64,000 nucleotides of DNA from a virus, in the IMG/VR virus record IMGVR_UViG_3300005190_000020; one strand, given 5' to 3'. Position 1 is the stretch's first letter, and each line of letters starts with the position of its first letter. A program made the position numbers and the translations under genes. The notes below the pieces were generated by a model. It was given only the letters and a program-made list of their open reading frames with translations. It was not told the origin of the DNA and did no database searches. This document shows positions 8,880 to 54,388 of the stretch, in pieces.

Positions 8880-8954
8880 TAGGCTGGGACAGATTTGAAC
8901 TGCCGCTCTCCTCCATGTCAAGGAGGTGTCATAACCAAGCTAGACCACCAACCT
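8880..8954 (-). tRNA. tRNA-Val (anticodon GAC)
   Basis: Acceptor AGGTTGG/CCAGCCT, anticodon arm CCTCC-TTGACAT-GGAGG, T-loop TTCAAAT. Confidence 0.7.
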
Positions 8955-9053
8955 GTAAAGGGAAATAGTGGAAATCAGGCTGTCAGTCGGTCTTTGCGAG
9001 CTTGAATGCTCTGATACCTCTTGCTTTGCCGAGGAGACTTGCTGTCCAGTCCG

Positions 9054-9082
9054 CCGAAGTAACTGATTTCCTTGCCCTAGTG
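9054..9082 (-). repeat. tRNA-associated conserved element, family 1 copy (minus-strand reading CTAGGGCAAGGAAATCAGTTACTTCGG)
   Basis: One of six copies sharing the 3' block (G/C)TTACTTCGR; lies immediately 3' of the intron-containing tRNA. Confidence 0.55.
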
Positions 9083-9085
9083 AAT

Positions 9086-9220
9086 TGGAGAGAGCTGGAC
9101 TCGAACCAGCGACCACGGGTTATGCATCCGAAGTAACTCCACTACTCGCACCAAGTAATTGGTTAATGTTGTAACGGAGTAGTTAAGTTACGCCGCTCTG
9201 CCTAACTGAGCTACCTCTCC
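9086..9220 (-). tRNA. tRNA gene with ~60-nt insertion (putative intron) between D-arm and T-arm; anticodon unresolved
   Basis: Clear 5' part GGAGAGG-TA-GCTC..GAGC and 3' part GCTGG-TTCGAGT-CCAGC-TCTCTCC-A; intervening sequence ends with conserved GGTGCGAGTAGTGGAGTTACTTCGG. Confidence 0.5.
9128..9152 (-). repeat. tRNA-associated conserved element, family 2 copy (minus reading GGTGCGAGTAGTGGAGTTACTTCGG) inside the tRNA insertion
   Basis: Shares a ~55-nt alignable block with the insertion at 10820-10870. Confidence 0.55.
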
Positions 9221-10056: not shown

Positions 10057-10130
10057 TGCTAAGGACTGGATTTGAACCAGCATCCTCTCCATCTTCAGTG
10101 GAGCGCCTTCCCGAGTTAGGCTACCTCAGC
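10057..10130 (-). tRNA. tRNA-Phe (anticodon GAA)
   Basis: Acceptor GCTGAGG/CCTTAGC, D-arm GCCT..AGGC, anticodon arm CTCCA-CTGAAGA-TGGAG, T-loop TTCAAAT. Confidence 0.8.
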
Positions 10131-10270
10131 ATCAGGGAAAATTGAAAGAGACGGTAAATAACCAGGCTTACAAGACCTGGGCAGCACGCCTTGTGCTATA
10201 CCTCCCGTCGGGAGGTGAAAGAATCGAACTTTCCGAAGTAAGTCTCCTTCTTGCCCTAGTAAAAAAAAGT
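10131..10270 (-). other. rearranged (apparently circularly permuted) tRNA-like locus: T-arm + 3' acceptor strand lie UPSTREAM of a 5' half carrying a Thr-like (UGU) anticodon arm
   Basis: Minus reading: family-1 element ...TTACTTCGG-AAAG-TTCGATT-CTTTC-ACCTCCC-G-AC-GGGAGGT-AT-AGCA..TGCT-G-CCAGGT-CTTGTAA-GCCTGG; acceptor halves ACCTCCC/GGGAGGT are complementary. Confidence 0.4.
10233..10259 (-). repeat. tRNA-associated conserved element, family 1 copy (minus reading CTAGGGCAAGAAGGAGACTTACTTCGG)
   Basis: Directly abuts the T-arm of the permuted tRNA-like locus. Confidence 0.55.
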
Positions 10271-10407
10271 AATTTGCCGCTTGACAGACCTGGAAAGCCT
10301 GTATCAGCGTAGTGTTGCCACTCGGACAAACATTATTTTAGAAAATGCGAATCTTGAGATACGTGAAATAGTGTCCAAGTGGTTCACCTCTGTAATTTAT
10401 TATTGTG

Positions 10408-10924: not shown

Positions 10925-10998
10925 TGGATTCGAACCAACGACTTCCTACGCCCAAGGTAGGAGTCCTCGCCCACTAGACCAACTCACCATAGGTGAAA
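10925..10998 (-). tRNA. tRNA-Pro (anticodon UGG)
   Basis: Acceptor GGTGAGT/ACTCACC, anticodon arm CCTAC-CTTGGGC-GTAGG, T-arm GTTGG-TTCGAAT-CCAAC. Confidence 0.8.
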
Positions 10999-11097
10999 CA
11001 GTGGGAAACAGCGTTTAGTTGGAGGATTTAAAGTAGGGTCCCGCCTCCTGCCACAGGCGGTTGTGTTCGAAGTATCTGTTTCCCTTGCACCTGTTTA

Positions 11098-13140: not shown

Positions 13141-13189
13141 GGCATAGTGAAGGGAAAAGGTGGAGTCGGAATGGACAACTGGTGTTGCC

Positions 13190-13320
13190 CGTAGGCAGTT
13201 TAGTCTGAACTACGAGACTTGCCGAGGTCTCGGAGGGATTTGAACCCTCGACTTTCAACTCTTAAGGTTGACGTTCTAACCGAAGTAGCCGACTTCCTTA
13301 GCCCTTCAAAGGGTGATTTC
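13190..13320 (-). other. split/permuted tRNA-like locus: family-1 element, then T-arm GAGGG-TTCAAAT-CCCTC + CGAGACC, then 5'-half-like AGTCTCG-TA-AGTT..AACT followed by a 7-bp/ACCA-tetraloop hairpin
   Basis: Minus-strand reading; acceptor halves CGAGACC / AGTCTCG nearly complementary; no canonical anticodon arm found. Confidence 0.3.
13280..13306 (-). repeat. tRNA-associated conserved element, family 1 copy (minus reading AAGGGCTAAGGAAGTCGGCTACTTCGG)
   Basis: Shares AGGGC(A/T)AG-purine run-...TTACTTCGG with copies at 9054, 10233, 13446. Confidence 0.5.
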
Positions 13321-13379
13321 CATCAACTGCGACCGTCTACGTTGGACGGCTAAAAATGTTAAGGGAATAGTGAGAGCGA

Positions 13380-13476
13380 GATTCAGAGCTTTTCCGCCTG
13401 CTCCTATAAGGGATAAGGATTCGAACCTTCCAGGTGATTCTGTAATCGAAGTAACTCGTTCTCTAGCCCTTGTAAA
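13380..13476 (-). other. tRNA 3'-half-like fragment (T-arm GGAAGG-TTCGAAT-CCTTAT) preceded by family-1 element; no matching 5' half identified
   Basis: Minus reading: ...GAGTTACTTCG-ATTACAGAATCAC-CTGGAAGGTTCGAATCCTTATCCCTTAT...; lies immediately 3' of tRNA-Trp. Confidence 0.3.
13446..13470 (-). repeat. tRNA-associated conserved element, family 1 copy (minus reading AAGGGCTAGAGAACGAGTTACTTCGA)
   Basis: Sixth copy of the motif family. Confidence 0.5.
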
Positions 13477-13551
13477 TGGGAGAGACAGGACTCGAACCTG
13501 TATCCACTGCTCTGGAGGCAGCAGCTCGGCCAATTGAGGCTATACACTCCC
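13477..13551 (-). tRNA. tRNA-Trp (anticodon CCA), apparently intron-less
   Basis: Acceptor GGGAGTG/CTCTCCC (one mismatch), anticodon arm GCTGC-CTCCAGA-GCAGT, T-arm ACAGG-TTCGAGT-CCTGT. Confidence 0.6.
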
Positions 13552-13557
13552 AATATG

Positions 13558-13600
13558 TGGCAGGGCATCGAACAGTTAGTTAGTATATGCGCGCCCTGCC
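13558..13600. other. strong GC hairpin (GGCAGGGC ... GCCCTGCC, ~27-nt loop) between promoter motif and tRNA-Trp
   Basis: 8-bp perfect GC-rich inverted repeat; possible processing/termination structure. Confidence 0.3.
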
Positions 13601-13630
13601 GTGCAAGGTGACAACCTGTATACTATAATG

Positions 13631-13652
13631 GGTGTTTAACTTTTTTAAACCT
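13631..13652 (-). promoter_or_regulatory. conserved promoter motif (weaker TATA: TTTTTTAAAC)
   Basis: GGTGTTTAACTTTTTTAAACC ~90 nt upstream of tRNA-Trp 5' end. Confidence 0.4.
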
Positions 13653-25839: not shown

Positions 25840-27375
25840 TTACTGGTATGCCTCTATTTCCATTGGCTCCCAGTTTTTAATGTCGTTCAAGAGTGCTTCC
25901 TCGTTTTCAGCGTGCTGAATGTAGTCAAGCATGTCGCTTGTCCATCCCTGCAACTCGTAAACGTCAGGGTAGCCTTCAGGGAAGCTTAGGTCTCCGTAAC
26001 TTGAAAGGTCTACAAGGTAAAGACTTGCGGACGGATTAACTTCTTCCTTGTAAGCCTCCCACTCGTCTTTCAAGGTTTGTGCGTCGTGACTCCAACCTGC
26101 GTTTGAATCCCATAACTGTAGGTCGGAGAACATAACTACACGTTTGTAGCTCTCTCCTTTCTGCCGGATGTCTCTGATTGCTTTGTAAGCGTTTGTGCTT
26201 CCTCCTGTCTGAGCATCCATGATTTTCTGCTGAAGCTCAAGTGTCGGAGTGTTGTAGTGAGCTTTGACGCGTTTGTAACGCTTACCGAATGCTCCTGTGT
26301 CGCTTCCGTGACGCATCATCATGGCTCCGAACAAGGCACCGATTTCTGCGTGCTGTAGGTCGGATTCCTGACTGATTCCTACTCCGTACATGGAGCCGGA
26401 TGTGTCTACAGCTGTGAATGTGTCGCTTAGGTTGTCGTCTAAACTGTCTGATGCTTTGTCGATTGCCTCTGAAAGTTTTTCTTCGATGACTGGGTCGCTG
26501 ACTCCTGCGTCCTTAACTGCTTTGTAGGACTGGTAGAATCTGAAAGGCCAAATCTGTGCGTGTTCAACCCATTCTAGGTCGATGTCGCCTACGATTTCCT
26601 CTGATTCAAGCCCTGCTTCTTTCATGTTTCGAATGTTTCTGATTCGGGCGAACAGTCCCATGTCGTCTAGGACTTCTCTCCATGCTTCGGCGTTGTTGCC
26701 TTTCTCGGAGATAACTGTTTCCCATGTCTTGCCTTGTGACTCGTTTAGAGGCTGTACGTCTGGGTACTTGTCTAGGTCGCCTCTCATCAGTCTTTCGAAG
26801 ATTTCGTCTCTTAACTCGTCTTGAGGGTTTGGGTGAGTCCTGTTGATTACGTCTCTAATGTTGACTTCACGGTTGTCGTTGTCGTACTTGTCGTACTGGT
26901 ATTTGTCGAATTTGTGAAGTGCTTTGTTGATTCCTTTTTTCAAAGGCTTCGGCATTGTTCCGCCTTGTAGCTGGTCCCATGCTGCTACGACTGTTGCTGG
27001 TTCGTCGGCTCTGTCGATAATGTTTCCAGCCCATTTTTCGACGTATTCCTTGGTTCTGTCGTCGCCTGCTGCAAGGACTAGAAGGACTTGTGAAATGTCT
27101 CTTAATCCCATGCTTTGTCTGGCGTATGCAGCCAGTTTCAAAGCAAACTCAGGGTTTTCGTCTGCTACTTCTTCGAAGGCTCGTTCAACGCTTCTAAGCT
27201 GTTCTTGGTCGTTTTCGTAGTAAGTGTCTTCAAGAAGGTTGTTGATGACGTTTTTAGCCAGGCCTAGTTCAGGTGTGTCTGGCTCGTATGCTTCGCCACC
27301 TTCATAGTTTGTGGTTTTGGTTCTTTCTGCAACTGTGTCTTTTGTGCTGTTTAGTTCCATTGTGTTGTTTAGCAC
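25840..27375 (-). CDS. vWA-domain protein with large N-terminal helical domain (Ro60/TROVE-like architecture)
   Basis: C-terminal MIDAS-like AVDTSGSM...; ~320-aa alpha-helical N-terminus + ~190-aa vWA, 511 aa total as in Ro60/Rsr. Confidence 0.4.
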   Translation of the reverse strand: MLNNTMELNSTKDTVAERTKTTNYEGGEAYEPDTPELGLAKNVINNLLEDTYYENDQEQLRSVERAFEEVADENPEFALKLAAYARQSMGLRDISQVLLVLAAGDDRTKEYVEKWAGNIIDRADEPATVVAAWDQLQGGTMPKPLKKGINKALHKFDKYQYDKYDNDNREVNIRDVINRTHPNPQDELRDEIFERLMRGDLDKYPDVQPLNESQGKTWETVISEKGNNAEAWREVLDDMGLFARIRNIRNMKEAGLESEEIVGDIDLEWVEHAQIWPFRFYQSYKAVKDAGVSDPVIEEKLSEAIDKASDSLDDNLSDTFTAVDTSGSMYGVGISQESDLQHAEIGALFGAMMMRHGSDTGAFGKRYKRVKAHYNTPTLELQQKIMDAQTGGSTNAYKAIRDIRQKGESYKRVVMFSDLQLWDSNAGWSHDAQTLKDEWEAYKEEVNPSASLYLVDLSSYGDLSFPEGYPDVYELQGWTSDMLDYIQHAENEEALLNDIKNWEPMEIEAYQ

Positions 27376-32506: not shown

Positions 32507-32872
32507 TTAATCCATCAACCCTTTCCTAGCGCTTAGGATGTCTTGAACATCGGTTTTAGGAATCATGGTTTTGCCGTCTTCCTCAAGGATTGTCGCACCC
32601 TGCAACTGTTTCTTGAATCTTACGTACTCTTCCTCGTTCAAGCAGTCAGCGATTTCTTCCTCGCTTATTCTGTAATCGCTTTTCTGCGGACTGTTCTCAC
32701 CTGTTACTTTGTCATACAGGTCTTTGTTGTAAAGCATGTAGTGGACTTGGAAAAGTGCTTCCTTTACTTTCTCCTCGTCTTGTCTTGCGTCCTCCACATC
32801 TGTTTCTGGGAAGAGTTCTTCGTATTCAGCGTCTCGTACCTTGGCCGCCAGTTCTTTCAGTGTTTCGTCCAT
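32507..32872 (-). CDS. hypothetical protein (121 aa)
   Basis: ORF; promoter motif 32885-32904 ~25 nt upstream of ATG. Confidence 0.45.
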   Translation of the reverse strand: MDETLKELAAKVRDAEYEELFPETDVEDARQDEEKVKEALFQVHYMLYNKDLYDKVTGENSPQKSDYRISEEEIADCLNEEEYVRFKKQLQGATILEEDGKTMIPKTDVQDILSARKGLMD

Positions 32873-32884
32873 ACCTAAAATATA

Positions 32885-32904
32885 CTGTTTAACTCTTATA
32901 AACC
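32885..32904 (-). promoter_or_regulatory. conserved promoter motif
   Basis: CTGTTTAACTCTTATAAACC. Confidence 0.5.
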
Positions 32905-32999
32905 TGTTGGAAAGTTTCTTGTTTCATGTGTTTAAAGTACACATTTTAGTTAATTATAGAGACATGAAGTAAGAAAAAGTAAAAATAAGTGGCCTGCCT

Positions 33000-33290
33000 C
33001 GCTTGTCGTCCACGAGGCTAGGCGCGTGCGTACCAGAACCAGACCGTTCGCCTTACAGCTTTCAGGCTTTAGGGTTTCTGCGAACTGGTAATGTAGGCTC
33101 AGGTGGTCGCCGTCCGAGTCCAAGTTACCAACCTGTGAATAGGCTGGGACACACCAGTCACCGGTTTAAGCTGCGGTGGTCAGACACGGACTTATGGATG
33201 TGCCGTCTGACGGTCTCCTACTCCACACTTATGAAGGATGTAGTACAGTAGTTGGAGCCCACCCAATAATCTACGGGCTTATATTGTTTT
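33000..33290 (-). ncRNA. candidate structured non-coding RNA (~290 nt, ORF-free, GC-richer than flanks)
   Basis: No ORF >= 60 aa on the gene strand; GC visibly higher than neighbours; TATA-type motif at 33295-33320 positioned to start a minus transcript; next promoter at 32885 delimits it. Confidence 0.35.
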
Positions 33291-33298
33291 ATTATCAC

Positions 33299-34087
33299 CT
33301 AATCTTTATAAATGTATTTGTCGGGCCACTTGTATTCAAAACCTTTTGGAGGATTACCCATCCACTTCCATACTTTCTTTGAGTCTTCAACGCTAAATTC
33401 TATTATACAGTTTACTTTACCTGCTCCATTTTTTCTTTTGTGTTCATTCCATCGAGCTATTTCTACAGGTGTGGAATCAAACATTTTTCCTACTTTTTCT
33501 TTCTCTGCTCGTTCGTTTGACAAGCCTATTGCTATGTAATTGTTATTATTTGTGTTATGCCATGTGCCGTCACAGCAGAACCAGTGCTTTAATATTTTTG
33601 GAGTTAACTTTATTTCAGGGAACTTTTTTTCACCGCTTTCATACCATTTTTCAAAGTTTGATAGTTCTGGATGTTTTCTTCCGTTGAGAACATATAAGTC
33701 TGAGTAATTTTCTTCAGAAGCGTTTTCACTCAACCCTGTTTTTCTTGCGTGTCTGGCGGATTCTTCTGCTGTTGCTTTCCTGCTGATTTTGCTTGACAAA
33801 AACGTTAGTTCGCTGTCTAAGTATTCAAGGTATTTTCTATTAGTATTTGTTACGCATATTGAAGGATTTCCAGCTTTGTTGATGTATCCATCTCCCATCA
33901 ATACACCTGTAATTATTTCTTTTTGTTTTTCAGAAATTTCTGGGTAATTACAGCTAGATTTATTCCAGTGAAGAGATATGTTCTTGTAGTTGTTTCCACA
34001 TTGTTTACATTTCATAAGAGAAAAAAGGTGGAAGGTGAAAGTGAAGTTCGGGAAAACCCACCTTGCTGGGTTATGACATTGGGGCAA
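33299..34087 (-). CDS. LAGLIDADG homing endonuclease (two-motif, monomeric type); start uncertain (34087 or internal Met ~34015)
   Basis: ITGVLMGDGYI and WFCCDGTW LAGLIDADG-type motifs; AT-rich. Confidence 0.6.
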   Translation of the reverse strand: MPQCHNPARWVFPNFTFTFHLFSLMKCKQCGNNYKNISLHWNKSSCNYPEISEKQKEIITGVLMGDGYINKAGNPSICVTNTNRKYLEYLDSELTFLSSKISRKATAEESARHARKTGLSENASEENYSDLYVLNGRKHPELSNFEKWYESGEKKFPEIKLTPKILKHWFCCDGTWHNTNNNNYIAIGLSNERAEKEKVGKMFDSTPVEIARWNEHKRKNGAGKVNCIIEFSVEDSKKVWKWMGNPPKGFEYKWPDKYIYKD

Positions 34088-34143
34088 TTGTTCTGGATTG
34101 CGAAGTAACCGAACTTCTCGCCCTTCTATAATAACATTATTAG

Positions 34144-34163
34144 TGTTTAACTTTTATAAACCT
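34144..34163 (-). promoter_or_regulatory. conserved promoter motif
   Basis: GTGTTTAACTTTTATAAACC. Confidence 0.5.
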
Positions 34164-34255
34164 TTTCAATTTAACGCATATTTTGTGGAGGTCGTCGTGG
34201 TTTAGTTCGGATATTATGAATCCTGCGGTCAGCATAACCATGCAAAGAAAAATGG

Positions 34256-39038: not shown

Positions 39039-39644
39039 TTATTTTTGCTGCAACTCTTCGTATTTTTGCTTTTTTCTCTTGAGATAATATTTTGCAGGGT
39101 AGAAGAAGTCTTGAATTTTTTTACTATCTTTCTGCATATAAGATAAAACAAACCCGTTATTAGTTCTTTCATGTATGTTAACTGAGGTACAACCTGCTTT
39201 CTGGTTTAACTTTTTTCTTATTTCTTTTAAGAAGTTTTTATCTTCTGAGAAAAATCTGGTGTTCATATATCCTTTACTTTCATATATGCCGCCGTCGCCG
39301 TCGAAGAAACCTCTTATGAAATCTCTGTCTGAAACTTCTTCAGGGTAAACTAAATCTCTGGATTTATCTGAAGTGTAACCTATACTTTTAAGGGCGTCTG
39401 CTAATTCTTTGCTGTTGAAATTTATGTAGAAACAGTTTTTCTTTTTTCTTTCAGTTATAGGGTGGCTTGAGTTAAGACAGGTCTTTAAGTCCTGTAAAAC
39501 TTGCTTATCTCCCGAAGTTATTCTTACGGTTGTGTCTCTTAAGTTTCCATCAGCGGCAAAGTATCCTAAGAAATATGATTGTTTTTCTGAACTTAAATCA
39601 TCTAAATCCTCTTTCAAATCGTATTTTCTGTATCGTTTAGGCAT
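39039..39644 (-). CDS. LAGLIDADG homing endonuclease (two-motif)
   Basis: LGYFAADGNL and IRGFFDGDGG motifs; AT-rich, 201 aa. Confidence 0.65.
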   Translation of the reverse strand: MPKRYRKYDLKEDLDDLSSEKQSYFLGYFAADGNLRDTTVRITSGDKQVLQDLKTCLNSSHPITERKKKNCFYINFNSKELADALKSIGYTSDKSRDLVYPEEVSDRDFIRGFFDGDGGIYESKGYMNTRFFSEDKNFLKEIRKKLNQKAGCTSVNIHERTNNGFVLSYMQKDSKKIQDFFYPAKYYLKRKKQKYEELQQK

Positions 39645-46737: not shown

Positions 46738-46741
46738 GATA

Positions 46742-46826
46742 TGCGGATGACAGGATTTGAACCTGTGTACCCCCTTCGGAGAGCGGAGCTTGAATCCGCT
46801 GCCTTTGGCCGCTTGGCTACACCCGC
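46742..46826 (-). tRNA. tRNA-Leu (anticodon CAA), type II
   Basis: Acceptor GCGGGTG/CATCCGC, anticodon arm GCGGA-TTCAAGC-TCCGC, long variable arm, T-arm ACAGG-TTCAAAT-CCTGT. Confidence 0.75.
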
Positions 46827-46849
46827 AAGTAGGCAGTTTTACGAGGTTG

Positions 46850-47468
46850 CCTAGCTCGGGAAGGTGAATTTAGATGAAAGCTATCAAGGGTTGATGGTTG
46901 AGCGGCTTTCTGTGCGTCTAAACTCAGATTTACCTTCGCACGCGTACCGTCTCCGGTTACGATTGCACGCCCGTTTTACAGGTTTAATACCTGCCTGTCT
47001 TCGGCTTCCCTCCGCTGCGTTCCACAATCAACGCCGACAAACCTGATACGGCTTGTCAGCCCTCGTCTCTATAGCTTCGGGTCTGACTTACGCCAGTCCG
47101 CCTCTCGTGGAAGAGCCTTCGAATAGGGGTGTGTCGTGAGCCGACTTTAACCTAAGCAGCTTTTTTCACTGCCTGGTCTGAGTTCCTCAACCCTTAGTCG
47201 GAGAGGTCTTTGGTGTCTGCCCACCGCCCTATGGTTCGAACCTTTTCCTTTTTATCGGTTTTAAGCCCTCGACCGTCTTCACGGATTTGAGAGCGCAGTA
47301 GGGTAATAAGCATAGGGTTTGTGCTGAACCGGTTAAAGCTCAGGGTGTCTCACCTCGGTATCCCGCACCTATCTAAAGACCGGCTTTTAACAAGTGACTT
47401 ATCCCAGTCAAGTGCCTCCGCCTTTTTAGCCTCGGGTGAACTTTTTCCTTCTCCTAGTAAATTAGTAT
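46850..47468 (-). ncRNA. candidate large structured non-coding RNA or decayed element (~620 nt without plausible ORF), between promoter motif 47469-47490 and tRNA-Leu(CAA)
   Basis: No minus-strand ORF >= 60 aa; GC visibly higher than coding flanks; many inverted repeats; perfect-consensus promoter immediately upstream. Confidence 0.3.
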
Positions 47469-47490
47469 TGGTGTTTAACTTTTATAAACC
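47469..47490 (-). promoter_or_regulatory. conserved promoter motif (perfect consensus)
   Basis: GGTGTTTAACTTTTATAAACC. Confidence 0.55.
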
Positions 47491-47602
47491 TATTTGGAAT
47501 CGGAGTAGTGCCACGCATTCACTGATGTTACGGGTTTTTTCACCTATTCCTGATTCGAAGTAAGTGACTTCTCCGCCTTTGTTTTCTACTTTTTCTTGTA
47601 GG

Positions 47603-52947: not shown

Positions 52948-53260
52948 ATAGTATGGTGCGCGGTTTAATTTTATAAACTCTGTGCTAATGCGGAAAGTAT
53001 TGAGAAAATTGCTTTCAAAACCGATTCAAGTATACGGAAAAATGTTACTATCACTCCGGCTATTATACGGGCTAGCCAGCCCCATCTCCGTTCAGTTTTT
53101 GGTTTATCCATTATCATCATTTAGGTTTAATCTCGTTTATACCTGTTTCCACCCTTCTTTAGTGTGGGTGTGCGAAGAAGACTCTGAGAGACCTGTGTAG
53201 AAACTCTGTATGTAGGGATTAAAGGTAGCTGAAAAAAGAAATATGGAAATGGATATGTGG

Positions 53261-54388
53261 TTACCGCCAGTCGATTTCTGTCATCGCTTTCTGGTTCGGG
53301 TGTTCGGACGGGTGCTGTTTCTCGTCGTCTTCACTCATTCCGCCGTAGTTTTGCTTGTAGTGTTCGTAGCTTCCTTTCGGCGGTTCGTCTCCACCACGAC
53401 TTGCTTTCTTCCCGTAGTCTCCTCTGATTTGGTTGTAGTTCCTGTCCTTGTTTTTCTTCCCTCTGCTGGACGACCTTTTCTTTGTCGTCACATTCTCTAA
53501 ACCCTCAACACTTGGAAGCTGTTTCTCAGGACTGTCTACAACTACTTCTGGCTGGATACGGGCTGTTACACCGTCTTCTACTTCAACGTTGGCTACTGCG
53601 TCTGCGAAGGTTTCCGCACCTCCGGCGTACAGGACCGCCATGTCGAAATGGCTGTTGATGTGGTCATCGTCTGTGCCACTGAACCCTGAGCTTTCTCCTG
53701 CCCATGGATGGCTGTGAATGTTGACGATGTAGCCCTCATCCCTGTACTTTTTCAGGTCTTCCTTGTATGTGATGTGCGCCCTACTTGCTTTCTGCTCTGG
53801 AATCACATAGTCTGGCTTTACTTTGAAGCCTTCGTCAGTCCATTCTCCTTTGAACAGGACTCCGAACTCGCACGCTGAACCGTAGTCCTCGTTTACTTCT
53901 TCCTGTATTGCTACACAAATCTTCCTTACTTCTTCGGAGAGGATTACCTTGTTTTTCTCGATGCCAAGCTGTTGGATGGCGTATTGTTCAAGGCTTCTTG
54001 CCCCGATTTCCTGTTCCAGTAGGTCTCGTAGGCTGGATGCTCCGAGTTCGTGTTCGGCAAGGTCTTGTGCTGAGTCAAGGATTTCCAGTCCTGAGTCCCA
54101 TACACCGCTCCTTGTCCCGTTCGTCGTGGTTGATGTGCTGGATGTTTCTGTCTTGGTTTTGTCCATGCTTCTGTCGTAGTCATCTCGTGCTTCTACTTCT
54201 CCTTGAAGCAAGGCGATTTTCTCTGGGTCGTCTGTGTTTACTGTGAACCATTCAAGTTGGTAGGCGTGGAAACGGTTTAACTGGCTGGCAAGGTCTTCCG
54301 TGCTTTGTTCTTCAAGCCAGTCTTCTACATCTCCTTCTACGCTGTCTGCTTCTTCGTACTCTGTCGGGTAATCTTTTTCTTCACTCAT
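53261..54388 (-). CDS. JAB/MPN (JAMM)-like metalloprotease domain protein
   Basis: NIHSHPWAGESSGFSGTDDDH resembles HxH-x(7-9)-S-xx-D JAMM motif; acidic N-terminal half; 375 aa. Confidence 0.4.
   Translation of the reverse strand: MSEEKDYPTEYEEADSVEGDVEDWLEEQSTEDLASQLNRFHAYQLEWFTVNTDDPEKIALLQGEVEARDDYDRSMDKTKTETSSTSTTTNGTRSGVWDSGLEILDSAQDLAEHELGASSLRDLLEQEIGARSLEQYAIQQLGIEKNKVILSEEVRKICVAIQEEVNEDYGSACEFGVLFKGEWTDEGFKVKPDYVIPEQKASRAHITYKEDLKKYRDEGYIVNIHSHPWAGESSGFSGTDDDHINSHFDMAVLYAGGAETFADAVANVEVEDGVTARIQPEVVVDSPEKQLPSVEGLENVTTKKRSSSRGKKNKDRNYNQIRGDYGKKASRGGDEPPKGSYEHYKQNYGGMSEDDEKQHPSEHPNQKAMTEIDWR

What the first reader, a model, noticed from the sequence alone, without database searches (positions are those of the whole stretch)
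33000..33290. ORF-free ~290-nt GC-richer segment with its own promoter motif, next to a LAGLIDADG endonuclease gene
The interval between the promoter motif at 32885 (serving gene 32507-32872) and the 3' end of the LAGLIDADG ORF has no ORF of 60 aa or more on the gene strand. Its GC content is visibly higher than its AT-rich surroundings. A TATA-type box at 33295-33320 (CACCTAATCTTTATAAATG) is oriented to launch a minus-strand transcript across it. Structured RNAs in AT-rich viral genomes typically stand out this way. The adjacent LAGLIDADG gene raises the possibility of an intron-derived or homing-associated RNA.
Basis: seen in the sequence. Interest (0 to 1): 0.6.

Follow-up and report, generated by a model that had tools for sequence, protein, structure and literature searches.

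The report
Virus RNA gene split by endonuclease
The GC-rich stretch is the larger half of a conserved, intricately folded non-coding RNA gene of an uncultured salt-lake archaeal virus; a selfish endonuclease gene has cut the gene in two, and its smaller half resembles the Y RNAs that partner the RNA-quality-control protein Ro60, which this virus also encodes.

Summary
Window 32982-33278 (minus strand) is ORF-free, has GC 0.52-0.56 against 0.30-0.36 in its flanks, and lies behind a TATA octamer.

It is not a stand-alone element or an intron remnant. In three related metagenomic virus contigs, this stretch and the 110-nt leader of the LAGLIDADG gene (34022-34130) are contiguous. Together they form one ~410-nt RNA gene behind the virus's consensus promoter.

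In this window and in one other relative, a LAGLIDADG cassette (33279-34020) sits in the AU-rich linker between the two domains. The cassette carries a TATA box about 25 nt upstream of the 3' domain.

Sixteen helices, two of them pseudoknots, are supported by compensatory changes. No Rfam family matches. No copy was found in IMG/VR or in the genome collection.

A covariance model of the 5' domain finds four clear paralogues (plus two weak candidates) in the window's tRNA array. It also finds one copy 8 nt upstream of the TROVE (Ro60) gene of halovirus HGTV-1. These modules share the architecture of bacterial YrlA-type Y RNAs, a GNCGAA-like motif and, in three paralogues, tRNA-like T-arms.

The function of the 3' domain itself remains inferred. 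My best guess is that it is an effector part or co-transcribed partner of a viral Ro60 RNP. It lies within an RNA-repair gene module.

The parts
34145..34162 (-). Consensus viral promoter (GGTTTATAAAAGTTAAAC) of the RNA gene. The transcription start is inferred near 34130.
   Evidence: Perfect match to a motif found 17 times on the minus strand against 0.2 expected. Leaderless genes start about 23 nt after the TATA box. The same motif precedes the RNA in L021, L022, L025 and L028.
34027..34130 (-). 5' domain of the RNA: a Y-RNA-like module. Its layout is stem P1, internal loop with GGCGAG, 9-bp stem P2, invariant UUACUUCG, and two hairpins (P3, P4).
   Evidence: Folding z-score is -2.84. P2, P3 and P4 covary among orthologues. 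CM R1 scores 119.6 bits here and finds paralogues and an HGTV-1 copy.
34021..34026 (-). U6 linker between the two domains. It is a possible partial terminator.
   Evidence: Present in the window, L021 and L028. Replaced by AUUAAACUAUAUU in L022 and by GUUUU in L025.
33279..34020 (-). Inserted homing-endonuclease cassette (742 nt), absent from L021, L022 and L028.
   Evidence: BLAST and nhmmer show the window's 34021 and 33278 are adjacent in the endonuclease-free homologues. The boundaries were read from the alignment.
33299..34015 (-). LAGLIDADG_2 homing endonuclease ORF (238 aa, ATG at 34015).
   Evidence: Pfam PF03161, E 8.7e-9. 45 homologues were found. The L025 copy at the same site is 35% identical, E 4e-47.
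33305..33312 (-). TATA box (TTTATAAA) in the last codons of the endonuclease ORF, about 25 nt upstream of the 3' domain. It is the inferred promoter of the 3' domain in this virus.
   Evidence: In L025 the homologous position holds CCTTTATAAAAGTTAGAC, close to the full consensus, 26 nt before GCCCG.
32992..33278 (-). 3' domain of the RNA (the finding). It comprises pseudoknot PK1, helices P7-P14, and pseudoknot PK2 between the P9 loop and the P13 loop. It has two invariant 11-nt hairpin loops (ACGGCGACCAC and UGGACGAYAAG).
   Evidence: 74-83% identical by BLAST to L021, L022 and L025 (85% for the whole RNA against L028), while the neighbouring protein is 44-83% identical. Curated helices pair in 451 of 452 cells. 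19 pairs show double changes against 7.0 +/- 2.0 in shuffles. CM R2 finds a single copy at 33095-33217.
32972..32991 (-). U-rich tail (CACUUAUUUUUACUUUUUCU) after the closing hairpin P14. This is the inferred transcription terminator.
   Evidence: Read from the sequence. U-runs follow P14 in all homologues.

Best explanation
SHOWN.
- Window 32982-33278 (minus strand) is the 3' domain of a conserved, non-coding, heavily base-paired RNA gene of about 410 nt. It belongs to an uncultured haloarchaeal tailed virus distantly related to HGTV-1.
- The gene starts at the consensus promoter at 34145-34162.
- Its ~100-nt 5' domain (34027-34130) is separated from the ~295-nt 3' domain by a short U/AU-rich linker.
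- In this virus, and in one relative, a free-standing LAGLIDADG homing-endonuclease cassette (33279-34020) has inserted into that linker.

INFERRED FROM ANATOMY.
- The cassette is not spliced out.
- The 5' domain is transcribed from the gene's own promoter as the leader of the endonuclease mRNA, or it ends at the U6 run.
- The 3' domain is transcribed separately from the TATA box that the cassette carries in its last codons.
- The RNA is therefore made 'in pieces'.

INFERRED FUNCTION.
- The 5' domain belongs to a family of modules that look like bacterial YrlA-type Y RNAs. There are at least 5 copies in this window and one directly upstream of the TROVE/Ro60 gene of HGTV-1.
- They share a 5'/3' terminal stem with a conserved internal loop carrying a GNCGAA-like motif. 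In three paralogues they also carry tRNA-like T, acceptor-like or D arms.
- I propose that this module binds the virus's own Ro60 (TROVE) protein (25840-27375).
- I propose that the 3' domain is either the effector or tethering part of that RNP, or a second RNA co-transcribed with it.
- The proposed role is in the tRNA/RNA repair and quality-control module in which it is embedded. That module comprises RlaP nucleotidyltransferase, the CCA-adding enzyme, RNA ligase and Ro60.
For: A contiguous gene exists in relatives.
- The leader and the element abut in L021. BLAST places utr5 1-145 at L021 528-672 and el3 43-339 at L021 673-983.
- The same holds in L022 and L028.
- nhmmer aligns the whole profile end to end in these loci, with E values from 1e-123 to 1e-133.

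The endonuclease sits at the same site in two viruses.
- The window and L025 carry homologous LAGLIDADG genes (35% identity) at the same site.

The structure is supported.
- RNAalifold predicts 97 pairs, 22 of them with compensatory changes.
- Sixteen curated helices pair in 451 of 452 cells, including 16 G-U pairs that would be A-C mismatches on the other strand.
- On the raw MAFFT alignment, 88.9% of cells are paired against 82.4% in shuffles. There are 19 double-change pairs against 7.0 +/- 2.0 (0 of 500 shuffles reach this) and at most 10 in the slid controls.

The sequence is under purifying selection.
- The RNA is 83% identical to L021, where the adjacent protein is 44% identical.
- There is no conserved ORF on either strand.

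A promoter lies in the cassette.

The 5' domain belongs to a module family.
- CM R1 hits window 13357-13474 (32.5 bits), 13146-13309 (26.5), 10128-10261 (24.8) and 8954-9082 (24.6).
- It also hits HGTV-1 at L001 3718-3812 (28.2 bits). E values run from 3e-7 to 8e-5.
- Each copy folds on its own into the same architecture.
- 22 of 25 pairs covary among the copies.

The modules resemble Y RNAs.
- The HGTV-1 copy starts at the transcription start and ends 8 nt before the TROVE start codon.
- Canonical T-loops (UUCGAAU, UUCAAAU, UUCGAUU) occur in three paralogues.
- Rfam YrlA aligns the T-arm, acceptor-like hairpin and D-arm of paralogue 13169-13282 in YrlA's permuted order (19.8 bits).
- The motif GNCGAAN0-1G, described as the likely Ro60 contact near the 5' end of bacterial Y RNAs (PMC4201824), is matched exactly in the L021 and L022 orthologues (GGCGAAG). 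It is matched with one change in the window (GGCGAG).

The genomic context is RNA repair.
- TROVE, RNA ligase, the CCA-adding/HD enzyme and RlaP all lie on the same strand within 9.5 kb.
- In the relative L023, an RtcB gene occupies the RNA's position.
Against: - No transcription or binding data exist.
- The Rfam YrlA score is far below gathering (19.8 against 69) and concerns a paralogue, not this gene.
- The window's own module has GGCGAG rather than GNCGAA, and lacks T- or D-arm-like hairpins.
- The paralogues have GGC[U/A]A[A/G]G.
- The TROVE gene is 6.6 kb from the RNA gene. This is beyond the 4 kb used to define bacterial Y RNAs, and no module lies next to it in this window.
- The 3' domain lies outside the module's closing stem, which is unlike any described Y RNA.
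- It is absent from the ~134 kb of HGTV-1 that was scanned (for L001, L008 and L035; for L036).
- It is also absent from the 60%-identity relatives L023 and L024 at the syntenic spot upstream of the conserved neighbouring gene. So it is not an obligatory partner of Ro60.
- Only five distinct full-length sequences support the structure, and they are related to one another.
Confidence: 0.6

Rival explanations
1. The 3' domain is an independent structured RNA. It could be a ribozyme, a decoy against a host nuclease or defence system, or a binder of tRNA 3' ends. On this view it merely sits downstream of a Y-like module and has nothing to do with Ro60.
For: - It has its own promoter whenever the endonuclease is present.
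- It has its own terminator hairpin.
- It lies outside the module's closing stem.
- A U6 run separates the domains in three of five sequences.
- Other copies of the module are followed by tRNAs rather than by this domain.
- It has very long invariant blocks (44 and 37 nt), two pseudoknots, and invariant loops containing UGGA and ACCAC.
- It is single-copy and absent from HGTV-1, which has both Ro60 and the module.
Against: - In the endonuclease-free genomes no promoter lies between the domains, so the two are co-transcribed.
- The two domains are always found together in the five full-length loci.
- The gene sits inside the RNA-repair/Ro60 module.
- No ribozyme or other family matches.
Confidence: 0.3
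2. The LAGLIDADG insert is an intron, either archaeal bulge-helix-bulge or group I, within the RNA gene. It is spliced out to restore one continuous RNA.
For: - Homologous endonuclease genes occupy exactly the same site in two diverged viruses.
- From general knowledge, LAGLIDADG genes are typical of group I introns and of archaeal rRNA introns.
- HGTV-1 tRNA genes are annotated with introns.
Against: - No bulge-helix-bulge arrangement lies within 6 nt of either junction in the window or L025. About 8% of shuffled junctions give one by chance.
- The insert has only 5 nt before the ATG and about 20 nt after the stop, so there is no room for a group I core.
- There is no Rfam intron match at E <= 10.
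- A promoter sits at the 3' end of the insert.
- Homologous endonuclease genes elsewhere are free-standing between protein genes.
Confidence: 0.06
3. The repeated 5' modules are not Ro60 ligands. They are processing or stabilising cassettes, or tRNA-derived relics, of polycistronic tRNA transcripts. The 410-nt RNA is then simply another cargo transcript that begins with such a cassette.
For: - Four strong and two weak copies lie inside the tRNA array. Two of them abut tRNA 5' ends (8954/8954 and 10128/10130).
- Copies begin at transcription starts or directly after tRNAs.
- None lies next to the TROVE gene of this window.
Against: - The HGTV-1 copy is the leader of the TROVE gene itself.
- The conserved internal-loop motif resembles the published Ro60 contact motif.
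- The YrlA-like permuted order of T, acceptor and D arms in one copy is not what a relic of a normal tRNA would give.
- Bacterial YrlA RNAs are themselves processed like tRNAs (PMC4201824), so the two readings overlap.
Confidence: 0.2
4. The segment is a decayed protein-coding gene, or a 3' UTR or terminator region of the endonuclease gene, with no function of its own.
For: A stop-free stretch of 82-92 aa exists on the plus strand in the window.
Against: - Open stretches differ in frame and position among the homologues.
- Indels are not multiples of three, and they sit in hairpin tips.
- Compensatory changes are seen in 19 pairs.
- The RNA is present without the endonuclease in three relatives.
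Confidence: 0.02

Closest known systems
Bacterial and phage Y RNAs of the YrlA type (Rfam RF02553; Chen et al. 2014, PMC4201824), partners of Ro60/Rsr
   Same: This comparison applies to the 5' domain and its paralogues.
- Size is about 100-165 nt.
- A long stem is formed by the 5' and 3' ends, with a conserved internal loop.
- A GNCGAA-like motif lies near the 5' end.
- The inner module is variable and is tRNA-like in three copies (T-loops; T, acceptor and D order in one).
- There are several paralogues per genome.
- They are co-transcribed with neighbours.
- They are encoded in genomes that carry a TROVE gene, directly upstream of it in HGTV-1.
- They are embedded in RNA-repair genes, as in the Salmonella rsr-yrlBA-rtcBA operon.
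   Different: - The host is an archaeal virus.
- The Rfam model does not reach its threshold.
- The motif is degenerate in most copies.
- The copies lie 6-17 kb from the TROVE gene in this window.
- The finding itself, a 295-nt pseudoknotted domain appended 3' of the closing stem, has no counterpart in any described Y RNA.
Genes 'in pieces' made by free-standing homing endonucleases in T4-like phages. From my own knowledge: Aeromonas phage Aeh1 nrdA split by mobE (Friedrich et al. 2007), and the split topoisomerase genes 39/60 of T4.
   Same: - A free-standing endonuclease gene is inserted inside a functional gene without being an intron or intein.
- The two halves are expressed separately and are presumed to work together.
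- Alleles with and without the endonuclease coexist in related viruses.
   Different: - Here the split gene encodes an RNA, not a protein.
- The host is an archaeal virus.
- The enzyme is a LAGLIDADG rather than an HNH or GIY-YIG type.
- The cassette appears to supply an archaeal TATA promoter for the downstream half.
Archaeal rRNA/tRNA introns carrying LAGLIDADG genes (for example I-DmoI and I-PorI; from my own knowledge) and group I introns
   Same: A LAGLIDADG gene interrupts a structured RNA gene at a fixed site.
   Different: - There is no bulge-helix-bulge motif at the junctions.
- There is no ribozyme core and no Rfam intron match.
- The insert carries a promoter, which points to separate transcription rather than splicing.
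Large structured RNAs of phages found next to tRNA genes (GOLLD, ROOL; Rfam)
   Same: - It is a large, highly conserved, pseudoknotted RNA of unknown function.
- It is found in a virus rich in tRNA genes.
   Different: - There is no sequence or structure match to those families at E <= 10.
- It is smaller, at about 300-410 nt.
- It occurs in archaeal virus genomes.

Membership tests
Y RNA / YrlA (Ro60-binding ncRNA) | Reaches the curated score of the Rfam YrlA or Y_RNA model | tested here: not met
   There is no hit at E <= 10 on the finding, on its 5' domain, or on the uninterrupted homologues. Only paralogue 13169-13282 gets 19.8 bits, against a gathering score of 69.
Y RNA / YrlA (Ro60-binding ncRNA) | Long stem formed by the 5' and 3' ends, enclosing a large loop or module; size 80-130 nt (PMC4201824) | tested here: met
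   This is met for the 5' domain and all paralogues. P1, the internal loop and P2 are recovered by independent MFE folds and covary. It is not met for the 3' domain (the finding), which lies outside that stem.
Y RNA / YrlA (Ro60-binding ncRNA) | GNCGAAN0-1G motif near the 5' end (presumed Ro60 contact; PMC4201824) | tested here: inconclusive
   The match is exact in orthologues L021 and L022 (GGCGAAG). The window and L028 have GGCGAGAAG, and L025 has GGCGAAAAG. The paralogues have GGCUAG, GGCUAAG or GGCAAG, and HGTV-1 has UGCGAGG.
Y RNA / YrlA (Ro60-binding ncRNA) | tRNA-like module with T, acceptor-like and D stem-loops | tested here: inconclusive
   T-arms with canonical T-loops are present in paralogues 13474, 13309 and 10261. 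The T, acceptor and D order aligns to YrlA in 13309. This feature is absent from the 5' domain of the gene under study.
Y RNA / YrlA (Ro60-binding ncRNA) | Encoded within about 4 kb of a Ro60/TROVE gene on the same strand | tested here: inconclusive
   HGTV-1 copy: 8 nt upstream, same strand. Window: same strand, but 6.6 kb away for this gene and 12-17 kb for the paralogues.
Y RNA / YrlA (Ro60-binding ncRNA) | Physical binding to Ro60 | not testable with these tools
   This needs EMSA or RIP with the TROVE protein encoded at 25840-27375.
Archaeal bulge-helix-bulge intron | Two 3-nt bulges separated by a 4-bp helix, with the splice sites in the bulges | tested here: not met
   An exhaustive search within 6 nt of both junctions gave 0 arrangements in the window and 0 in L025.
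Group I intron | Ribozyme core (P3-P9) within the intervening sequence, and a flanking host gene restored by splicing | tested here: not met
   The insert is the ORF plus 5 nt and about 20 nt. There is no Rfam Intron_gpI hit at E <= 10. The structured RNA is exon-like, being present without the insert.
Free-standing homing endonuclease cassette | Endonuclease gene present or absent at a fixed site among close relatives, not bounded by intron or intein structures, with homologues that stand alone between genes | tested here: met
   Presence in the window and L025, absence in L021, L022 and L028, all at the same junction. Homologues in L005-L007 lie between protein genes. Cleavage activity was not tested.
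RNase P RNA, SRP RNA, tmRNA, GOLLD/ROOL and other Rfam families | Match to the family covariance model | tested here: not met
   Nothing was found at E <= 10 over the window region or over the uninterrupted homologues L021, L028 and L025.

The most novel reading that the evidence does not exclude
The 295-nt domain is a new class of large, pseudoknotted functional RNA. It may be catalytic, or it may bind tRNA 3' ends through its invariant UGGA and ACCAC loops. On this reading it works with a Y-RNA-like module and a virus-encoded Ro60. That would make this the first Ro60-Y RNA system described for the archaeal domain, with an effector domain unlike anything known in bacteria or animals, and one that tolerates being expressed in two pieces.
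Probability: 0.3. Interest if true: 0.85.

Novelty: new variant of a known kind. Interest (0 to 1): 0.72.

Why it matters
**Ro60 without known RNA partners in archaea.** Ro60 orthologues have been noted in archaeal viruses, but no RNA partner has been noted with them. The Asgard-virus preprint only cites bacterial work, and the papers on HGTV-1 do not mention one.

**A testable set of candidates.** This finding offers a family of candidate Y RNAs, with a covariance model. It includes one copy in a cultured virus-host pair: HGTV-1 with Halogranum. Binding and knock-out experiments are possible there.

**A well-supported orphan RNA.** The 3' domain is a strongly constrained RNA with two pseudoknots and no known relatives. 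It sits inside a viral tRNA/RNA-repair module.

**An RNA gene in pieces.** The endonuclease insertion gives a natural case of an RNA gene expressed in two pieces, with a promoter brought in by the mobile element. This bears on how selfish elements limit the damage they do to their hosts.

Tried and rejected
**Rfam and tRNA scans**
- Rfam at gathering score on the whole window gave only tRNAs.
- Rfam at E <= 10 on the region, on 23.5-36.5 kb and on the uninterrupted homologues gave nothing relevant.
- ARAGORN with intron, low-threshold and tmRNA options on 32900-34250 found nothing.

**Searches for relatives that found nothing**
- DNA similarity to 50,697 phage records: no match.
- IMG/VR scans with two neighbouring proteins, a protein-family alignment, two exact RNA patterns and one gapped module pattern: nothing.
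- Genome collection scan with a 20-mer from the most conserved block: five chance matches in acidic-repeat coding DNA, no homologue.
- Of the 13 metagenome hits to an 18-mer, 12 were chance matches and one (L021) was real.

**Ideas considered by eye and dropped**
- RNase P RNA: AAGUCCG and GCUUA are present, but the would-be P4 strands are 13 nt apart and there is no P1.
- SRP RNA: L025 has UGUAAU and a CCCAGC hairpin, but the topology is wrong and no model hits.
- K-turn: there is no GA/GA pair.

**Other negative checks**
- Long-range pairing of GGGCGA with UUGCCC, as proposed by RNAalifold: rejected. The A-for-G change in L022 and L028 is compensated in the PK1 loop, not there.
- A bulge-helix-bulge intron.
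- Whether the second ORF-free stretch (46830-47470) is a paralogue: no.
- Whether HGTV-1 has the 3' domain: not in the ~134 kb examined. Record positions 120001-143855 were not fetched.
Full report
**Setting**

The window comes from an uncultured head-tailed virus of halophilic archaea.
- Nearly all genes are on the minus strand and their proteins are acidic.
- There are 27-30 tRNA genes.
- The best protein matches, at 30-35% identity, are to Halogranum tailed virus HGTV-1.
- There is no DNA match to any deposited phage record.
- A motif, GGTTTATAARAGTTAAAC, occurs 17 times on the minus strand against 0.2 expected. It sits so that leaderless genes begin about 23 nt after its TATA box. I treat it as the viral promoter.

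**The observation**

The segment is as described.
- GC is 0.52-0.56 across 33000-33250, against 0.30-0.36 in the flanks and 0.434 overall.
- No minus-strand ORF exceeds 57 aa.
- TTTATAAA lies at 33305-33312.
- The adjacent ORF, 33299-34015, is a LAGLIDADG_2 endonuclease.
- On the minus strand the segment ends in a G+C-rich hairpin followed by CACUUAUUUUUACUUUUU.
- Single-sequence folding is only mildly better than shuffles, with z about -2.1 on either strand. The case therefore rests on comparison with relatives.

**Finding relatives**

Exact look-ups of the neighbouring proteins recovered only the same virus from JGI sample 3300005195. There, two contigs end inside the element with a 99-nt overlap.

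An 18-mer from that overlap, scanned over the metagenome collection, gave one true homologue, L021. Homologues of the downstream 121-aa protein led to L022, L025, L027 (partial) and L028, which is identical to L029 in this region.

The decisive result is that three of these lack the endonuclease gene: L021, L022 and L028. In them, the sequence homologous to the endonuclease gene's 110-nt leader (window 34021-34132) runs straight into the sequence homologous to the finding (window 33278 downward). This is shown, and by nhmmer end-to-end alignments with E 1e-123 to 1e-133.

The window and L025 carry homologous LAGLIDADG genes (35% identity) at the same point. The insert in the window is 34020..33279. 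It consists of CUCUU, the ORF, and about 20 nt.

**It is an RNA gene**

Across five distinct full-length sequences there is no conserved reading frame on either strand. Indels fall in hairpin tips.

The RNA is more conserved than its neighbour. Against L021 it is 83% identical, while the adjacent protein is 44% identical.

The structural evidence is as follows.
- RNAalifold predicts 97 pairs, 22 of them with compensatory changes.
- I curated sixteen helices.
  - P1-P4 lie in the 5' domain.
  - An H-type pseudoknot, PK1, opens the 3' domain. Its stem GCCC:GGGC becomes ACCC:GGGU. Its other stem reads UUGG:CCAA, GUCGA:UCGAC or GUCAC:GUGAC.
  - P7-P14 follow.
  - A second pseudoknot, PK2, joins the P9 loop to the P13 loop. 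GCAGCUU:AAGCUGU becomes GCAGUUU:AAACUGU in L022.
- These helices pair in 451 of 452 cells. Sixteen are G-U pairs that would be mismatches on the plus strand.
- On the raw MAFFT alignment, which misaligns several variable hairpins and so undercounts, 88.9% of cells pair against 82.4% in shuffles. There are 19 pairs with changes on both sides against 7.0 +/- 2.0 (0 of 500 shuffles reach this). The slid controls give at most 10.
- Two 11-nt hairpin loops (ACGGCGACCAC and UGGACGAYAAG) are essentially invariant, with one change in L025's UGGAAGAUAAG. Blocks of 44 and 37 nt are nearly so: both are identical in the window and L021, and the 37-nt block holds in four of the five sequences.

**Not a known family**

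Rfam 15 gives nothing at E <= 10, either on the window or on the uninterrupted homologues. ARAGORN finds no tRNA or tmRNA. IMG/VR and one-genome-per-species scans find no copy. A covariance model of the 3' core (R2) finds only the window's own copy. It finds nothing in about 134 kb of HGTV-1 or in the other loci.

**The insert is a free-standing endonuclease cassette, not an intron**

- It has no room for a ribozyme.
- No bulge-helix-bulge arrangement exists near either junction in the window or L025.
- Homologous endonuclease genes in other viral contigs sit tightly between protein genes with no such RNA.
- The last codons of the window's ORF contain TTTATAAA, about 25 nt upstream of the first base of the 3' domain.
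- In L025 the equivalent place holds CCTTTATAAAAGTTAGAC, close to the full consensus, 26 nt upstream of GCCCG.

I infer that in endonuclease-bearing genomes the 3' domain is transcribed on its own from a promoter that travels with the cassette. The 5' domain then becomes the leader of the endonuclease mRNA, or ends at the U6 run.

In the endonuclease-free genomes no promoter separates the domains, so they are co-transcribed. The linker is U6 in three sequences but AUUAAACUAUAUU in L022, so it is a spacer rather than a conserved terminator.

**What the 5' domain is**

A covariance model of it (R1: 101 positions, 25 pairs) finds four further copies in the window.
- 13357-13474 (32.5 bits)
- 13146-13309 (26.5 bits)
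- 10128-10261 (24.8 bits)
- 8954-9082 (24.6 bits)
- Two weaker candidates: 10302-10394 and 10986-11096

All lie in the tRNA array. The model also finds one copy in HGTV-1 (L001 3718-3812, 28.2 bits). The E-values are rough.

All copies share the signature UA.AAGGGC.A, then the P2 5' strand, then (N)UACUUCG, then a variable module, then the P2 3' strand, then CA.UUUU.CCCUU. Each folds by itself into the same shape. Among the copies, 22 of 25 pairs show changes on both sides. Cells are 89.7% paired against 62.2% in shuffles. That alignment is fitted to the model.

The HGTV-1 copy begins at the inferred transcription start and ends 8 nt before the start codon of the TROVE (Ro60) gene. The window also encodes a TROVE protein (25840-27375). 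It lies on the same strand as an RNA ligase, a CCA-adding/HD enzyme and an RlaP nucleotidyltransferase. The RNA gene lies among them. In the more distant relative L023, an intein-bearing RtcB ligase occupies the RNA's place.

**Comparison with Y RNAs**

Chen et al. 2014 (PMC4201824) define bacterial and phage Y RNAs by these features.
- A long stem made by the two ends
- A GNCGAAN0-1G motif near the 5' end that probably contacts Ro60
- A tRNA-like module with T, acceptor-like and D arms
- Several copies per locus
- Co-transcription
- A position within 4 kb of rsr on the same strand

The modules here compare as follows.
- They have the stem and internal loop.
- The motif is exact in orthologues L021 and L022 (GGCGAAG). 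It is one base off in the window (GGCGAG) and more degenerate in the paralogues.
- Three paralogues have hairpins with canonical T-loops (UUCGAAU, UUCAAAU, UUCGAUU).
- In paralogue 13146-13309, Rfam's YrlA model aligns the T-arm, the following hairpin and a D-arm-like hairpin in YrlA's permuted order. The score is only 19.8 bits against a threshold of 69.

I therefore call the 5' domain Y-RNA-like in how it probably works. I do not file it as a member of the YrlA family.

**What remains inferred**

The finding itself, the 3' domain, has no counterpart in known Y RNAs and lies outside the module's closing stem. The following facts are established.
- It is co-transcribed with a Y-like module in the endonuclease-free genomes.
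- It has a promoter of its own in the two genomes invaded by the endonuclease.
- It is extremely constrained.
- It is embedded in an RNA-repair module.

From these I propose that it is the effector part of, or a partner RNA in, a viral Ro60 RNP acting on tRNAs or other structured RNAs. An independent function is the main rival (0.3). That could be as a ribozyme, a decoy or a binder of tRNA ends. No experiment or expression data bear on this yet.

**Verdict**

It is partly wrong: the RNA is not intron-derived, and it is half of a larger gene that the endonuclease split.

The 5' half extends a known kind, Y RNAs, to archaeal viruses. I could find no published description of such RNAs there. The 3' half is an orphan structured RNA.

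Noticed in passing
window 46830-47470 (minus strand): A second large ORF-free stretch of about 620 nt, with GC about 0.52 and purine-rich. It starts right after a perfect consensus promoter (47473-47490) and runs directly into tRNA-Leu(CAA) at 46741-46827. No ORF exceeds 47 aa on the minus strand; a 60-aa ORF (46864-47046, GTG start) and part of an 80-aa ORF (47321-47563) lie on the plus strand. There is no Rfam hit at E <= 10. It is unrelated in sequence to the finding and is not hit by R1 or R2. It is a candidate large ncRNA.
   Followed up: partly
window 8954-9082, 10128-10261, 13146-13309, 13357-13474 (minus strand); weaker 10302-10394 and 10986-11096: Paralogues of the 5' domain (Y-RNA-like modules) are interspersed with the tRNA genes. 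Two abut tRNA 5' ends. Three carry T-arm-like hairpins. One has a weak full-length Rfam YrlA alignment.
   Followed up: yes
L001 3718-3812 (HGTV-1 NC_021328 record 67607-67701, complement): An unannotated copy of the same module in the cultured virus HGTV-1. It fills the 134-nt gap upstream of the TROVE-domain gene 129 and ends 8 nt before its start codon. A TATA-like TTTAAGTA lies about 25 nt upstream.
   Followed up: yes
window 9086-9220 and 13477-13549 (minus strand): Two tRNA genes missed by ARAGORN. One is a 135-nt tRNA, probably with an intron (39.6 bits, seen only in the permissive Rfam scan). The other is a weak tRNA whose anticodon loop reads CCA (Trp), at 29.9 bits.
   Followed up: no
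window 13560-13612 (minus strand): Between the promoter at 13634-13651 and the tRNA-Trp lies a long hairpin, GGCAGGGC...GCCCUGCC, of unknown role. It is at the start of a polycistronic tRNA/Y-like transcript.
   Followed up: no
L036 3099-3449 (HGTV-1 record 52999-53347): A 350-nt unannotated gap in HGTV-1 between a LAGLIDADG endonuclease gene (gene 104) and tRNA-Arg(GCG). The layout is like the finding's, but neither R1 nor R2 matches it.
   Followed up: partly
L022 2912-3469: In this relative an extra 185-aa ORF with no Pfam match sits between the RNA gene and the conserved 121-aa gene. This suggests the locus is a hot spot for insertions.
   Followed up: partly
L023 1-2244: In a more distant relative the place of the RNA gene is taken by an RtcB RNA ligase gene. 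That gene is interrupted by an intein with an HNH endonuclease.
   Followed up: partly
window 33121-33219; JGI contigs Ga0073163_1000003 and Ga0073163_1000007: The public assembly of the same virus breaks inside the RNA gene, with two contigs overlapping by exactly 99 nt. This points to a sequence variant in that population at one edge of the overlap. The variant itself was not recovered.
   Followed up: partly
window 39039-39644 (minus strand): A second, unrelated LAGLIDADG_3 endonuclease gene lies in the same window. HGTV-1 likewise carries several LAGLIDADG and HNH genes.
   Followed up: no
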